The position numbers were made by a program, and so were the translations under genes. Below the pieces are notes generated by a model. The model ran no database searches. It worked only from the letters and a program-made list of their open reading frames with translations, and had not been told where the DNA came from. 64,000 nt of DNA from a virus. The DNA lies in the IMG/VR virus record IMGVR_UViG_3300013102_000002, positions 96,001-160,000 of that record, one strand, 5' to 3'. Positions 48,646-54,664 of the stretch are shown in pieces; positions within the stretch are counted from its first letter, which is position 1; the number at the start of each line of letters is the position of its first letter.

Positions 48646-49038
48646 ATGAAAAAAATAAAAGTATTATTGGCAGTATTGATGACGGTGATTGCATTGACTG
48701 GTTGCACAACAGAAGCAGACAAGGTTAGCCAAAATCTGTCGTTAGAAGCAGATAATTTTAATGTTGTTCGTCAATTAACCGTAATTAACTGCATACAGGG
48801 AGATACGTTATTTCAAATGACAGGAAAAATGTCAATAAAAGCAGATAGCACTGATAATCAACTTGAAATTGTTGTTGAAGATGAAAATGGGAATTACCAA
48901 AAACACTTCATAGGCTTAAGCGACAATGTGTCGTATGTTGTGGAGCAGAAGGGATATAAAAATGTAAGCAAATTTAAATATACATTGAACTATAATCCAA
49001 AAATGTGGATTCCTGTTGATGTCAAAACAATCGAATAA
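48646..49038 (+). CDS. Conserved phage lipoprotein
   Basis: LTGC lipobox; EADNFNVVRQLTVIN...KHFIGLSDNVSYVVEQ. Confidence 0.8.
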   Translation: MKKIKVLLAVLMTVIALTGCTTEADKVSQNLSLEADNFNVVRQLTVINCIQGDTLFQMTGKMSIKADSTDNQLEIVVEDENGNYQKHFIGLSDNVSYVVEQKGYKNVSKFKYTLNYNPKMWIPVDVKTIE

Positions 49039-51194
49039 TCGCAAAATAATAGATTTATCAAAATTTAGGAGGAATATAAGTGGAAAATAAATATTTGAAA
49101 ATTAACTTTTCTTGGGGAAACACAATTGAAAGTGCTGTTCATCAACTACTTGAATACAAAAAGAATGGTGTTTTAGCCTGCGGTGAATTTAATGGAGCAA
49201 CGCTGTATTCAGATACGGTTACTATGGACGGAGCATATAAAGAAATTATTGGAAAGACGAAAGCAGAATTCGATGAATCGCAGCGAAAATGGAGAGAGGA
49301 ATCAGAAAAGAGAGAAGTGGAATTCAAAAACAGTATTCCATCTCTTACTGAAGAATGGAAAGCGAAAGGCAGAAAAGTATTAGATCAAGACAAATGGGAT
49401 TATTGGGATGAAATTGTACCAATTAGGCTTGGAGATTTGTATCATGGAATGGAATTGGGATGCTGCTTGAATATTGTGAAGATTCTAAATGAAAATGGCA
49501 GTCTCGAAGACGCAAAGAAAGAAATTGAAAACCAAGGACATTCAGGAATGTCATTTGGTTTAGTAAGAACAATGGTTAAAGAGTTTTGTGCTAGGGGCGA
49601 AGAGTTTTCAAAGTATTTGGCTTATTAGAATATTTGATAAATACATACTTTTATAAAGAAATGAGGGGGATAATAATGTACATTATTATCACAATGCTTA
49701 TCGTATGGGCTTTGGCAATGCTGTTTTTGCCAAGGTGGTTGACCCACATTGAAATGACAAAAGAAGATGTAAAAGAATATGGGTGGGCAACTTATAAACA
49801 ATTTAAAGAAAACTTCAACAAATACGAATGGACTCCATTACGACTTTATCCAGACAGTTGCTCTAATGACAAAGAAGAATGTTATTTTCACGCAAGTATT
49901 ATTAAAATGGGTGGCAAAGGAATGTTGATTAGAGACCCTATCAGTTTGATGTTGGTGAAAAGATATGTAAAAAATGTGTTGTACAAGAAACCAGAAAAGC
50001 CAATTAAATCGGTTGATTTGTGGAAGGAGGCCAATAATGAGCCAAGAAGAAAGCAATTTTACTTTTAGAACAAAGCTATTTCCAATGGATGTATCGTTAC
50101 TCTTCTCAATTTTTCAGAATCCCAACACAGTATTTACAGATGATCAAATTGAGAGCTGGAATAAGCAAGCGAACCAGATTCGTGATATTCTGGACGATCT
50201 GATTGATGAAGCAAATATAATTATGGAGAGCTAATACATATGAAACCACTTTACATGAGTAGACATTTTAAATATTACCACAAGAACAGATTTCATATTG
50301 AAGGCGTATCACGCAAAACTAAAAAGCATCTTCAGAAAGCAATCAAAAAAGGCTACTTGCCAACTGTAACAGAGCAACGCTGGTTTCAATTGCCTGAATG
50401 CAAATGGTGTAATGGTGGAGGGTATTATCGAGAGCACGAATATGACACTGGTTATACTTGCCCTGATTGTGTTGGCACTGGCAAAGATGGATGGTTTGCG
50501 AAAGATGGGAAAATGTATGACAGAGAAACAAGATTAGAAGTTAAAGAATTCTAAGGAGGTTTAATTATGATTTGGTTTGTGGTTGTTGGAGGACTTTTCA
50601 ATATCATATCTGCACTTGTGATGAATACAAAAGATGTGCCAAGCGCTGTATTCTTTAAAGTGATTCCTTTCATCTTGGGGTTGGGTTGCATTCTTTACTC
50701 AGTGTCTTATTTTAACATTCTATAAAACTTATCTTTTATCAAAACAAGGAGGTGTACTATATTGGAAGAAATCGATTATGATAAGCTGCTGAATGATTGG
50801 GCAGATGGGATATTTAAACTTTTAGATGAGGCCAACAATAAAAAAGATGCCGAAGACTTTGGAACTCCTGAGTATTATCGCAACTTTGGTAGAGTTCAAG
50901 CGTTCTCAGAGTCTCTTTCTCAATTGAGTTTTCTAGAGAAAAGACGTAAGGGTAATTATATTAAAAATCAAGGAGGTGATATTAATGAGACGCATTGAAC
51001 TTTTATTGTCTGACCTGAATATCGAGTATAAGCACCCAGATGGTCAGTGGAAGAGTTTTGGTGAGGTTTGGACTGAACTTGCTGTGGCATGGGGTAAATA
51101 TGATCAGAGTGAACAACAGGAGATTATTTATGCTTTGGAAGATACTCTGAATCAAGACAATAAATAAAAATATTTGGGGGAGTGGTATTTATAA

Positions 51195-52842
51195 ATGAAA
51201 TGGAAACAAAAAACACCTGTCATTCCATTTGAATCATATGACAATACGTATTCTAAACTTGCGAAACTTAACGGAATCACAAACATTGATCAATTCCTGA
51301 ATCCACTGTCTAATGTAATTTGTGATTCTTATCTGCTTAAAAATATTGATGCATTAGCAAGTCGAATCATTCTTGCAATTCGGAATCGTGAGCCTATTAC
51401 GATTACTGGCGACCCTGATTAGTTAGGATTATGACGGCGTAACTTCGTTGGTGACAATGTATAAGTATCTACTTAATTTCACTGACGAAGTATATTATGT
51501 GTGCAATGAACGATCCGAAGGTCATTCGATTAATAACTTAGTCGAAACGATTCCAGGATCAACAAAAGTTCTGATTGCAGTAGACAGTTCATCAAACGAT
51601 GTTGAGACCATGCGACTACTATCATCAAGAGGAATTGACTGCTTAATCATTGACCATCATACAGTTACAGTAGATAACCCATATGCAATTTTAGTAAACC
51701 CGCAGCAAGCCAATGACCAATATCCAAACAAAAATGCTTGCGGCGGTTTACTCGTCTTCAAGGTTTGCCAAGTAATTGATGATTACATGAATACATATTA
51801 TTCAAACAAGCTCGATGATCTTCCTGGATTTTCTCTAATGGCTGATATGATGTCAATGTTGGAATTAGAGAACAGATATTACGCAAAACAGTCACTGAAG
51901 AATTTACATCACGCAGGACTCAAAGCATTGTTTCAAGCAATGAATTATGATCTAACAAACCTATCTGCGACAGACTTTCTATACGGGGTAAGCCCTGCTG
52001 TAACAGCTGCTACACGAGCAGATAATATCCAGTTAGCAATTGACTTTCTGATGTGTATAGATGACTCAGGCGACATCAAGGGGCTTGCTAAAGAGTTGGT
52101 TAAGGCCAATGAGAAGCGTAAAGAAGTTCAGGCTGAGGCACTCAACGCATTGAAACCGTTTGTGGATGAGCGAGATAAAGTAGTAATTGTCTTCGATCCG
52201 ACACTTGGGAAAGGGATGAATGGCCTCGTAGCGCAAGAATTGTCACGGACATTCAATAAACCAGCAATTGTTCTTGGAGAAGGTGACGACAAAGATACCT
52301 ACGCAGGAAGTTATCGTGGATTAGAGGACTTTTCAATGCTTGAATTACTTAATGGTTGCGAGAGTGTAATTTACACAGGAGGACATCCGTCTGCTGGAGG
52401 GGTGCAACTACCCAAGACCAACTTAGAATTGCTTAGACAAGAACTAAATAAAAAATTGTCTAATTTTGAAGCCGACGATTCGTTGTACTATGATCTAGAA
52501 TTCAACTTGTCAGATGTCAATGAGAATCTAGTTAATTATCTGAATGAGTTTTACCGGATTACAGGCAACAAATTCAAGCAAGGCAAATTTCTCATCAAGG
52601 GATTATTCGTCTCAGATAAGAAGCTCATGGGTAAATCTGCTAATACAGTTAAGGTTGATTGCGATAAGATTCAATTGATGAAGTTTAAAACTGATGAGCA
52701 ATACTTTAACTCAGTCCCGGTATTCTCTGAAATTGAAGCCATCGGCTCACTCAACATCAACGTTTGGAAAGTTTATAAGCCCAAGTTTAAAGTCACTAAA
52801 ACACTGCAATTATTCATTGATGATTACCGGGAAAATATTTAA
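51195..52842 (+). CDS. recJ: RecJ/DHH ssDNA exonuclease (YorK-like), split by a 10-nt gap at 51420-51429
   Basis: GDPD|YDGVTS motif I across the gap, AVDS, IIDHH, LVNP, GGHPSAGG; joined product 545 aa. Confidence 0.9.
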
Positions 52843-54664
52843 TAAATAAATATATACAAATTACAAAATACATTATATAATAAAGGAGAACAATACATAT
52901 GACATTTTACGGACTGGCAACAACTCAAAACGGAGCAAGCGTAGTAATCAGAGATTTTACAGCAACAGATCGAATTGGTGTAGAAAATGAAGCAAAAAGC
53001 TATTGCAAGAAACAAGGACTGGTATTTGATAAGGTATTGCCAGAAAAGAATACAGTTAAAGGAGGATCAACACTTACCAAATACGCGAAGCAGCGTCAGC
53101 AATCGAATAACAAACGGTAATTAGTAAATATAATAGGTCTTCTATAATGGGAGGCCTATTCCTTTAAGGGAGTGCTTGAGTTGAAAAATGAAACAGTTTA
53201 TGTAGCACCTGAGTCAATCACAAATAAGAATGTTGAATACATAAAGTTGCTAAGTGGGAAAATTGATTTGAAGAAACCAAGTTTTGCATCTAGCGATGAA
53301 ATTATCGACACACTGAAAGAATTCGATTTAGAAAAACCGCGAAAACATTGAGTTTTTTGAAGGCAATAATCTGATGAAATTGAGTTTTTATCAAGAAAGA
53401 GGGATCGATTAAATGTACATATCAAGCAAGAAAGAAAAAATTTATGTAATTGGGGTAAAAAACAAAGGCTATGTTGATCAATTTGGAGGCATTAATCAGG
53501 ATGTATTTAATGCTCAAAGCTATCAGGAAGTGGATGATGCCAGAAAACATGCGGGTTTATGCACTAATTTGGGGGATTTATATATCAGAGCACTAGTTGT
53601 TGAAGACGCTGGTATTGTAGAAATTTAATTATAAGAACCGTTTCATAAAATTATATGGGGGCGATGCTTTGATTAATATTAGGGAAGTGAAAGAGATATC
53701 TAAGAGCAATGCAAAAGAAATAGTTGAAAATCTTATTGCATTAAAGGAGATAGAATCTCAAATACTTGCTGCTGCTAAGATGGGACTTACTTACACGAAA
53801 GTTGAGATTAACAATGTGAGTAAAGATGAATATACTCAAATTGGCTCATATCTTGAAATGTGTGGATATTCTTTTACTCCATTTAATGATTATCGTTGTG
53901 CTTTTATAGGATGGAAATATGAATAACAATATAAAATACAAGATTCATCAAAAAAGGAGGATAATAATGTATTATTTGCGCAAGGAATCAGAAGAAAAAA
54001 TTATTTCCGAAATTACTAAGACTGATGGGTCAGTAATACCAGAAAGAAAATTTATGAGCGAAGAACGTGCTGTCTTCAAACACCATGATTTTTCACGTTT
54101 TTATAGAGGAACATTTAATGGACTGACGGAGAAATATCAAGGTATGAAAGTATACCAGTGCAAGACATTAAAGAAAATTCTTGAGCTTAGGGAAAGTACA
54201 TTTAATTATAGTGGTGAGTGGTTTGATGTTTATGATGAGAATGGAAAAGTGGAAATTGATGATTTGAAATAGTGGTTTTATTAGGTCACAAATTCATATG
54301 AAAGGAGACTGTTCTATGCCAAACTATTTAAATGACTCTAATAACAAAAGGGTTTTTCTCTATGTGAGAGGTGATGATTATTCAGCTCTCACTTTTGATC
54401 AAAAGTTTTATGCTCAAGAAGTATACGAAGATATGGTTAGTAAAGGCGAAACGTCTAGAACGATTGACGATGAAGATTATATGGATATTGATATCGTAGA
54501 GTTTAACAAGGTTGATGAGAGATTTTTGAAGTGGGTTAAGGATTATCTCTGTGACTACGATCAACTTAAAGGCAGCGATATTTTTGAAGTTAAGCCAGTA
54601 AAGATATAATCAAATAATGCTTTCATGATGTTTTAAAAATAAAAATAAGAGGAGTTGTTGTAAT

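What the first reader, a model, noticed from the sequence alone, without database searches (positions are those of the whole stretch)
51411..51447. Candidate programmed translational bypass of 10 nt in the RecJ catalytic motif
Seen: GAC CCT GAT [TAG TTAG GAT] TAT GAC GGC GTA ACT TCG. Removing 51420-51429 restores DHH motif I (GDPDYDGVTS) and a 545-aa protein. The take-off codon GAT (51417-19) is followed by a stop and matched by a landing GAT (51427-29). CCTGA-TTAG-TTAGG can form a 5-bp stem with the UAG in a tetraloop. Both halves are otherwise intact, and the downstream half has no properly spaced SD. Known: T4 gene 60 bypassing uses matched codons, an adjacent stop and a take-off hairpin; natural examples are very rare. 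Inference: ribosome hopping regulates an essential-motif nuclease. Alternatives are a minimal intron remnant, an excision scar or an assembly error.
Basis: partly seen in the sequence, partly recalled or inferred. Interest (0 to 1): 0.9.

Follow-up and report, generated by a model that had tools for sequence, protein, structure and literature searches.

The report
Ribosome-hop gap in prophage recJ
The RecJ-type DNA exonuclease gene of this large Paenibacillus phage is cut inside its metal-binding motif by 10 untranslatable bases that start with a stop codon. About 20 diverged relatives keep 9- or 10-base versions with both halves under selection, so ribosomes most likely hop over the gap, a rare natural short form of translational bypassing.

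Summary
GAT (51417-19) is followed by TAGTTAGGAT (51420-29), then TAT GAC GGC. An independent assembly of the probable source run reproduces it exactly, so it is not an assembly error. Contigs from two other studies bridge the site with one base fewer.

- **Distribution:** six other distinct genomes carry 10-nt (TAGTTAGGAT, TAGTTAAGAT) or 9-nt in-frame (TAGCCAGGC, TAGCTAGAC) versions. Eighteen database clusters of ~75-aa fragments all end in GDPD.
- **Origin:** on the N-terminal part all carriers form one clade, nested among gap-less relatives that read GDPD-Y/F-DG without interruption.
- **Selection:** both halves have dN/dS of 0.02-0.10 at near-saturated dS. The gap itself is more conserved than four-fold sites (P≈0.002).
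- **Frames:** in the 10-nt forms frame 0 and frame +1 both hold a stop inside the gap, so no single frameshift can join the halves.
- **Code:** TAG is an ordinary stop in this genome and there is no suppressor tRNA.

Best reading (~0.7): a UAG-triggered hop of peptidyl-tRNA-Asp from GAU to GAU/GAC.

New here: gap-less relatives start the gene at ATA/ATC, whereas carriers start at ATG/TTG. A second lineage has a conserved 1-nt CCC-TGA interruption one codon upstream.

No protein or RNA proof exists. The scan already reported this gap in related prophages (e1-5610585, e1-5728591, e1-5700396).

The parts
51176..51182 (+). Shine-Dalgarno-like GGGGGAG upstream of the ATG start
   Evidence: Read directly. 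Carriers have a canonical ATG or TTG start here, whereas gap-less relatives have ATA or ATC.
51195..51419 (+). Upstream coding segment: 75 codons, the N-terminal helices and strand beta1 of the RecJ-like protein, ending ...ITGDPD
   Evidence: ORF. dN/dS is 0.02-0.10 among carriers. Eighteen database fragment clusters end at the same residue.
51417..51419 (+). Proposed take-off codon GAT (Asp), the first Asp of the catalytic DxD of DHH motif I
   Evidence: GAT in 7 of 7 distinct carriers. Aligns to the DxD of solved RecJ structures through the intact relative L009.
51420..51429 (+). 10-nt coding gap TAGTTAGGAT. It holds the frame-0 stop UAG (51420-22), the frame +1 stop UAG (51424-26) and the proposed landing codon GAT (51427-29).
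   Evidence: Absent from gap-less relatives. More conserved than four-fold degenerate sites.
51414..51427 (+). Possible small take-off hairpin: CCUGA stem, UUAG loop, UUAGG stem
   Evidence: Predicted in the window and L010. Partly kept in other carriers, with no compensatory changes and non-significant z-scores. Status inconclusive.
51430..52842 (+). Downstream coding segment: resume codon TAT, 470 codons and the TAA stop, covering DHH, DHHA1 and RecJ_OB domains
   Evidence: Pfam hits. dN/dS about 0.05-0.07 among carriers. The first six codons YDGVTS vary only synonymously. No start codon lies upstream of them.

Best explanation
This is an evolutionarily retained short translational bypass, a 'stop-hop'.

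**Proposed steps**
1. Ribosomes translate the 75-codon upstream segment.
2. With peptidyl-tRNA-Asp on GAU (51417-19) in the P site, the A site holds UAG.
3. In a fraction of ribosomes the tRNA unpairs instead of the chain terminating. The mRNA slips forward 10 nt (9 nt in the in-frame variants).
4. The tRNA re-pairs with the next Asp codon: GAU, GAC in L004, or GGC through a G.U pair in the L002/L083 subtype.
5. Decoding resumes at UAU. The product is a 545-aa RecJ-like 5'-3' ssDNA exonuclease with an intact D-P-D-Y-D-G motif I.
6. Ribosomes that terminate at UAG release the 75-aa fragment.

**Efficiency.** The hop is probably inefficient. Gap-less relatives start this gene at a weak ATA/ATC codon, while carriers have gained ATG/TTG. 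This fits a low, selected expression level that is throttled at initiation in one group and at the hop in the other.

**Shown:** the gap, its conservation, selection on both halves, closed frames, the normal use of TAG as a stop, and the start-codon pattern.

**Inferred:** the hop itself, its efficiency and its purpose.
For: **The gap is real and shared**
- Seven distinct carrier DNAs were read: window, L002, L083, L004, L003/L084, L005 and L010.
- X2 and X3 add contigs from other studies.
- Eighteen 90%-identity clusters of N-fragments all end in GDPD. They come from P. polymyxa, P. odorifer, P. spiritus and from compost and rhizosphere metagenomes.

**The junction is exact**
- Gap-less relatives L009, L011, L012, L030 and L020 read GDPD directly followed by Y/F/M-DG.

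**Single origin, long persistence**
- On the N-terminal part all 20 carriers form one clade with support 95/79.

**Selection on both halves**
- dN/dS is 0.02-0.10 in both halves, with dS from 0.35 to saturated. This holds within the GGC subtype too: L002 against L083 has dS 0.75-1.05 and dN/dS 0.03-0.05.
- Codons on both sides of the gap change only synonymously.

**The gap itself is constrained**
- Mean pairwise identity is 0.74 against 0.515 at four-fold sites (P≈0.002). Five of 10 columns are invariant against 11.7% (P≈0.0014).

**Simple alternatives are closed off**
- In the 10-nt forms a frame-0 stop lies at +3 and a frame +1 stop (TAG or TAA) at +7, so no single shift can connect the frames.
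- TAG ends 31 of 192 long ORFs, and the genome encodes only tRNA-Met.
- No start codon lies upstream of YDGVTS. In L010 the first in-frame start of the downstream half is codon 47, without an SD.

**Start-codon pattern**
- The start codon is ATG/TTG in 7 of 7 carriers and ATA/ATC in 18 of 18 gap-less relatives.
- The following 21 codons are under purifying selection, pN/pS 0.15.

**Precedent**
- The 10-nt gaps in the phiHau3 terminase gene were bypassed in E. coli when a stop codon opened the gap, with a junction peptide seen by mass spectrometry (PMC10732093).
- Synthetic stop-hops are described in PMC5009743.
Against: - There is no protein, ribosome-profiling or RNA evidence. No RNA-holding run was listed.
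- The landing codon is GGC, not an Asp codon, in the long-lived L002/L083 subtype.
- No conserved stimulatory RNA structure or SD-like element was found.
- No nascent-peptide signal could be tested.
- Known unstimulated stop-hops are inefficient (about 1% is my recollection of synthetic constructs, not something tested here), so the yield could be very low.
- The carriers are one clade. The gap and the start-codon change are therefore essentially one evolutionary transition and not many independent ones.
Confidence: 0.7

Rival explanations
1. The gene is functionally split and no hop occurs. The 75-aa N-fragment and a separately initiated C-fragment, or the N-fragment alone, are the selected products, and the nuclease is catalytically dead or the pieces reassemble.
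For: Both halves are intact and under selection, which would also fit two useful proteins. Carriers have an efficient start for the N-fragment. Weak start candidates (TTG, GTG, ATG) exist at codons 7-10 of the downstream half in most carriers.
Against: The six codons YDGVTS before those starts change only synonymously across carriers, and no start codon lies upstream of them. In L010 the first in-frame start is codon 47 without an SD. The GDPD end is invariant in all 20 carriers, which is hard to explain for a free C-terminus. Conservation of the gap's landing codon is also unexplained.
Confidence: 0.1
2. Mixed conventional recoding. In the 9-nt forms UAG is read through, adding three residues. 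The 10-nt forms would need readthrough plus a further shift.
For: The 9-nt forms are in frame. In L004 readthrough would still leave a DYDG motif.
Against: The 10-nt forms carry a second stop in frame +1 and a TGA further on in frame 0, so readthrough plus one shift fails. Three extra residues would sit directly before or within the DxD metal site, where all gap-less relatives have none. No suppressor tRNA is encoded and TAG is a normal stop.
Confidence: 0.06
3. The 9-10 nt are removed from the mRNA by an unknown endonuclease-and-ligase or micro-intron mechanism, or from a sub-population of DNA by slippage between the GATTA direct repeats.
For: GATTA flanks the 10-nt unit in the window.
Against: No conserved structure surrounds the gap. 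The 9-nt forms have only a TA repeat. No bacterial or phage 9-10-nt intron is known, to my knowledge. Contigs from three studies all keep the gap, although contigs cannot show rare variants.
Confidence: 0.06
4. The gene is a pseudogene, a neutral scar or an assembly artefact.
For: A stop codon sits inside a catalytic motif, and gene callers split the gene.
Against: The gap is reproduced in independent assemblies and studies. dN/dS is 0.02-0.10 over saturated dS. The gap is more conserved than neutral sites. It occurs in about 20 diverged lineages.
Confidence: 0.02

Closest known systems
Streptomyces phage phiHau3 large-terminase gene: two 10-nt coding gaps, and a 7-nt gap in a related prophage (Smith et al. 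2013; Antonov et al. 2023, PMC10732093)
   Same: The gap is short (10 nt) and frame-disrupting, in an essential-type phage gene. The flanks are contiguous in relatives that lack the insert. A slow-to-decode codon opens the gap. Bypass of 10 nt was shown by a junction peptide in E. coli when that codon was a stop.
   Different: The phiHau3 trigger is the rare Leu codon UUA, tied to Streptomyces bldA biology, not a stop. Only 3 of 100 terminase genes carry it. A stem-loop and an SD 5' of the gap were proposed there. Here the trigger is always UAG, about 20 diverged lineages carry the gap, both +1 and in-frame lengths exist, and no SD or structure is supported.
Phage T4 gene 60 50-nt bypass and its homologues within the MobA homing-endonuclease element (Huang 1988; Bonocora 2011; Manning & Atkins, bioRxiv 10.1101/2022.08.31.505936)
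   Same: Both have a take-off codon followed at once by UAG, a matched landing codon next to the resume codon, and a take-off codon lying in a potential hairpin. Both gaps sit in a phage DNA-metabolism gene, and lateral spread is suggested by the L010 mosaic.
   Different: The gap here is 9-10 nt, not 50. No nascent-peptide signal is known. There is no supported stem-loop or internal SD. No homing-endonuclease gene lies beside the gene: HNH, HNH_3 and GIY-YIG are absent from this genome and tens of kb away in other carriers.
Synthetic 'stop-hops' in E. coli (Weiss et al. 1987, as reviewed in PMC5009743)
   Same: Matched codons flank a stop, the P-site tRNA re-pairs downstream, and no elaborate stimulators are needed.
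   Different: Those were laboratory constructs of 9 nt in total (codon, stop, codon). The review states that no natural in-frame stop-hop is known. Here the skipped stretch is 9-10 nt beyond the take-off codon, and it is natural and conserved.
Magnusiomyces capitatus mitochondrial 'byps' (Lang et al. 2014, cited in PMC5009743)
   Same: Short inserts inside conserved coding sequence are bypassed, and take-off and landing codons are not always perfectly matched.
   Different: Those are 27-55 nt mobile GC-rich elements at 81 sites, read by a relaxed mitochondrial translation system with an unused codon in the A site. Here there is one site, read by an ordinary bacterial code.
prfB-type +1 programmed frameshift at a 'shifty stop' (relevant to the L059 lineage)
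   Same: L059 reads CCC TGA C at the same motif. A P-site tRNA-Pro could slip from CCC to CCU with a stop in the A site.
   Different: This is not the window's mechanism. No upstream SD stimulator was examined, and only one DNA sequence was available.

Membership tests
RecJ-like DHH phosphoesterase (ssDNA exonuclease; SPbeta YorK-type) | DHH, DHHA1 and RecJ OB-fold domains | tested here: met
   PF01368 44.7 bits, PF02272 29.7 bits and PF17768 33.3 bits, all above their cut-offs; the intact relative matches RecJ structures 8y30, 5f54, 1ir6 and 2zxo at E 5e-35 to 2e-27.
RecJ-like DHH phosphoesterase (ssDNA exonuclease; SPbeta YorK-type) | Motif I D-x-D(-G) metal ligands contiguous in one polypeptide | tested here: inconclusive
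   In the DNA the motif is split between D (51417-19) and Y-D-G (51430 onward). It is contiguous only if 51420-29 is skipped. Gap-less relatives have it contiguous.
Programmed translational bypassing (gene 60 / phiHau3 kind) | Non-coding insert absent from homologues, with flanks co-linear with the intact protein | tested here: met
   gap-less relatives read GDPD then Y/F/M-DG.
Programmed translational bypassing (gene 60 / phiHau3 kind) | Stop or slow-to-decode codon immediately 3' of the take-off codon | tested here: met
   UAG follows GAT in 7 of 7 carrier DNAs. All 18 database fragment clusters terminate after GDPD. No TAA- or TGA-led form was found in viral contigs.
Programmed translational bypassing (gene 60 / phiHau3 kind) | Landing codon cognate to the take-off tRNA, directly 5' of the resume codon | tested here: inconclusive
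   GAT in the window, L003, L010 and L005; GAC in L004; GGC in L002 and L083, which would need a G.U pair at the middle position.
Programmed translational bypassing (gene 60 / phiHau3 kind) | Gene remains under purifying selection on both sides of the gap | tested here: met
   dN/dS 0.02-0.10.
Programmed translational bypassing (gene 60 / phiHau3 kind) | Stimulatory mRNA structure, such as a take-off stem-loop | tested here: inconclusive
   A small hairpin is possible, but there are 0 compensatory pairs and z-scores run from -0.05 to -0.9.
Programmed translational bypassing (gene 60 / phiHau3 kind) | A single full-length protein with the junction peptide is made | not testable with these tools
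   Needs mass spectrometry or a reporter assay. No RNA or protein data were reachable.
MobA-type homing-endonuclease plus bypass mobile cassette | Homing-endonuclease gene adjacent to the interrupted gene | tested here: not met
   Neighbouring ORFs have no endonuclease hits. HNH, HNH_3 and GIY-YIG are absent from G000 and lie more than 15 kb from the gene in other carriers.
Stop-codon reassignment (TAG read as an amino acid) | TAG avoided as a terminator, frequent in-frame TAG, or a suppressor tRNA | tested here: not met
   31 of 192 long ORFs end in TAG. The 174.5-kb genome encodes only tRNA-Met.

The most novel reading that the evidence does not exclude
The gap is a translational throttle that replaced an older one. 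The RecJ-like nuclease of this phage group is normally kept scarce by a conserved non-canonical AUA/AUC start codon. In one clade a UAG-led 9-10-nt hop took over that role and the start became ATG/TTG. A second lineage independently placed a CCC-UGA +1 shift site one codon away. If so, the 9-nt forms would be the first natural in-frame stop-hop, and the system would give a set of natural variants (10-nt, 9-nt, GGC landing, +1 site) for studying unstimulated bypassing in Gram-positive bacteria.
Probability: 0.35. Interest if true: 0.9.

Novelty: new variant of a known kind. Interest (0 to 1): 0.8.

Why it matters
**Rarity.** Natural translational bypassing is known from very few systems: T4 gene 60 and its homologues, one yeast mitochondrion, and the phiHau3 candidate. 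The 2016 recoding review states that no natural in-frame stop-hop is known.

**What this case offers.**
- The gap is short and stop-triggered, and it is conserved through roughly 20 diverged prophage lineages of cultivable Paenibacillus, including P. polymyxa.
- Natural length and landing-codon variants exist.
- No homing endonuclease sits beside the gene to confound interpretation.
- A start-codon switch correlates with the gap and suggests what the gap costs in expression.

**Testability.** The hop can be tested directly with a reporter, or by proteomics of an induced lysogen.

**Annotation.** Gene callers split this gene or truncate it. Intact relatives are truncated to 524 aa for lack of a canonical start.

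Tried and rejected
- **Close DNA relatives among deposited phages:** megablast and blastn of the gene found nothing. Only tblastn hits below 40% identity appeared, all intact. Tsamsa gp107 was checked and is uninterrupted.
- **RNA evidence:** no RNA holder was listed among sequencing runs. All four runs laid were contigs, so they cannot show rare variants, transcripts or expression.
- **Other gap lengths and stops:** 7- and 8-nt forms, mentioned in earlier notes, and TAA- or TGA-led forms were not found in viral contigs with two further patterns.
- **Family-level search:** 401 Paenibacillaceae genomes yielded no additional carriers beyond G111 and G018.
- **Homing-endonuclease cassette:** not found.
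- **Conserved RNA structure:** not supported.
- **TAG reassignment or a suppressor tRNA:** rejected.
- **Synonymous-site suppression near the gap:** only modest, 0.30-0.40 against a mean of 0.48 (SD 0.08), and not the lowest in the gene.
- **Structure and complex prediction:** not run. Intact relatives already show the fold, and a test on split halves would pass by homology alone.

Full report
**1. The observation**

The window is bases 96001-160000 of a 174,510-bp IMG/VR virus record with direct terminal repeats.

- At 51408-51447 the + strand reads GGC GAC CCT GAT, then TAGTTAGGAT, then TAT GAC GGC GTA ACT TCG.
- A 75-codon ORF (51195-51422) ends ...ITGDPD followed by TAG.
- The downstream frame is open from GAT 51427 to TAA 52840-42. 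It carries DHH, DHHA1 and RecJ_OB domains above the Pfam cut-offs.
- An intact relative aligns to solved RecJ structures, with GDPDYDGVTS opposite GDYDADGVTA/SA. The interrupted codon pair therefore lies inside the metal-binding DxD of motif I.

**2. Not an error**

- The Logan contig of the probable source run is identical over 50400-52600.
- Contigs from two other studies bridge the site with only one base fewer.

**3. Relatives**

*Carriers.* Viral, metagenome and genome scans gave seven distinct carrier sequences:

| Gap | Length | Genomes |
|---|---|---|
| TAGTTAGGAT | 10 nt | window, L003/L084, L010 |
| TAGTTAAGAT | 10 nt | L005 |
| TAGCTAGAC | 9 nt, in frame | L004 |
| TAGCCAGGC | 9 nt, in frame | L002, L083 |

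L083 lies in a complete Paenibacillus chromosome and differs synonymously from L002 in the flanks.

*Gap-less relatives.* Relatives at 66-78% identity (L009, L011, L012, L030, L020) read GDPD directly followed by Y/F/M-DG.

*Database fragments.* Eighteen 90%-identity clusters of ~75-aa proteins all end in GDPD. They include entries from P. polymyxa, P. odorifer and P. spiritus.

*Phylogeny.* On the N-terminal part all 20 carriers form one clade (95/79) nested among gap-less relatives.

*A mosaic.* On the C-terminal part L010 sits among gap-less relatives.
- It is 97-99% identical to L011/L012 from about +40 nt onward.
- Upstream it is only about 60-80% identical to anything sampled.
- A recombination breakpoint therefore lies just downstream of the gap.

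**4. Selection**

- Among carriers dN/dS is 0.02-0.10 in both halves, while dS runs from 0.35 to saturation.
- Within the GGC subtype (L002 against L083) dS is 0.75-1.05 and dN/dS 0.03-0.05, yet the 9-nt gap is identical.
- Codons on both sides of the gap vary only synonymously.
- The gap is more conserved than four-fold degenerate sites. Mean pairwise identity is 0.74 against 0.515 (P≈0.002), and 5 of 10 columns are invariant against 11.7% (P≈0.0014).

A pseudogene or a neutral scar is therefore excluded.

**5. What can join the halves**

- TAG terminates 31 of 192 long ORFs, and the genome encodes only tRNA-Met. Reassignment and suppression are out.
- In all four 10-nt forms frame 0 has a stop at +3 and frame +1 has a stop (TAG or TAA) at +7. 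No single frameshift works, and readthrough plus one shift does not work either.
- No start codon precedes YDGVTS. In L010 the first in-frame start of the downstream half is codon 47, without an SD. A separately made C-fragment would lack motif I.

What remains is a jump from GAU to the codon after the landing triplet.
- The first Asp-type triplet 3' of the stop is the landing codon in 5 of 7 carriers (GAU or GAC).
- In L002/L083 the triplet there is GGC. The tRNA-Asp anticodon GUC could pair with it through a middle G.U; this is inference.
- Landing instead on the next GAY would give GDPD-GVTS, which still reads D-x-D-G. I cannot decide between these two options.

**6. Signals**

- RNAalifold and single-sequence folds show no significant or covarying structure.
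It has one mismatch in L003, L004 and L005.
- SD-like AGGA occurs only in some forms.
- The conserved features are therefore GAU-UAG, an A at gap position 6, and the landing triplet.

**7. No endonuclease cassette**

- Neighbouring ORFs have no PHROG or Pfam endonuclease hits.
- HNH, HNH_3 and GIY-YIG are absent from this genome and far from the gene in other carriers.
- The T4 mobA/gene 60 cassette model is not met, although the L010 mosaic shows that the gap can move by recombination.

**8. Two new observations**

*(a) Start codons.*
- In all 18 gap-less relatives examined there is no usable ATG, GTG or TTG before the conserved WKQK. The codon two positions before Trp is ATA (15 relatives) or ATC (3), placed 9-10 nt after a strong SD.
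- In all 7 carriers that codon is ATG or TTG.
- The 21 codons after ATA/ATC are under purifying selection (pS 0.73, pN 0.11), so they are translated.
- This suggests that low expression is selected. The gap clade appears to have traded a weak start for an inefficient hop.
- Because the carriers are one clade, this is essentially a single evolutionary transition.

*(b) A second interruption.*
- L059 (Paenibacillus sp. Marseille-Q4541, 58% identity) reads GAT CCC TGA C TAC GAT GGC. That is one extra base and a shift-prone CCC-UGA, one codon upstream of the window's site.
- Two further fragment clusters (92% and 82% identical, from independent assemblies) also end ...IVIFSDP. This interruption is therefore conserved too.

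**9. Comparison with what is known**

- The nearest published case is the phiHau3 terminase gene, with 10-nt gaps opened by UUA. Bypass was shown there by a junction peptide in E. coli when a stop replaced UUA (PMC10732093).
- T4 gene 60 shares the take-off codon followed by UAG and the matched landing codon. It differs in having a 50-nt gap, a nascent-peptide signal, a stem-loop and a MobA cassette (bioRxiv 10.1101/2022.08.31.505936).
- Synthetic stop-hops are the simplest mechanistic model.
- I found no paper on this Paenibacillus case.
- Within this scan the same gap was already reported in related prophage genomes (e1-5610585, e1-5728591, e1-5700396). Many analogous short stop-led gaps were noted in other phage genes. 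These are unchecked AI notes, and I could not confirm their 7- and 8-nt forms.

**10. Verdict**

A UAG-triggered 9-10-nt translational hop is the best-supported explanation (about 0.7), but it rests on comparative evidence alone. It is a new variant of a known kind, and interest is high.

Noticed in passing
window 51195-51197; loci L009, L011, L012, L015-L024, L030, L032, L035, L057, L063 about 225 nt upstream of position 1501: Gap-less relatives of this recJ-like gene have no canonical start codon. A conserved ATA (15 of 18) or ATC (3 of 18) lies 9-10 nt after a strong SD, and the next 21 codons are under purifying selection. All 7 gap carriers have ATG or TTG there. Annotation pipelines truncate the intact genes to 524 aa.
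   Followed up: partly
L059 around 1480-1500 (same site in L082, minus strand; Paenibacillus sp. Marseille-Q4541): A second, independent interruption of the same motif: GAT CCC TGA C TAC GAT GGC, one extra base forming a CCC-UGA shift-prone site one codon upstream of the window's gap site. Two further diverged fragment clusters (P0025, P0026) also end ...IVIFSDP, so it is conserved. This is a candidate programmed +1 frameshift.
   Followed up: partly
L010 (IMGVR_UViG_2907128583_000005; its N-fragment is identical to the P. polymyxa protein P0014): The gene is a mosaic. From about +40 nt after the gap it is 97-99% identical to gap-less L011/L012. The gap and everything upstream come from a different, unsampled carrier lineage, so a recombination breakpoint sits within about 50 nt of the gap.
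   Followed up: partly
window 50240-50554: A 104-aa ORF with a CxxC...CxxC zinc-ribbon motif. It has weak, below-cut-off similarity to Anti-TRAP and hits to PHROGs of unknown function.
   Followed up: no
window 49000-54600: The recJ-like gene is surrounded by many small ORFs (50-180 aa) with no Pfam or PHROG function, and the flanks cannot be aligned between otherwise close relatives. Earlier notes describe repeat-bounded one-gene cassettes in this region.
   Followed up: no
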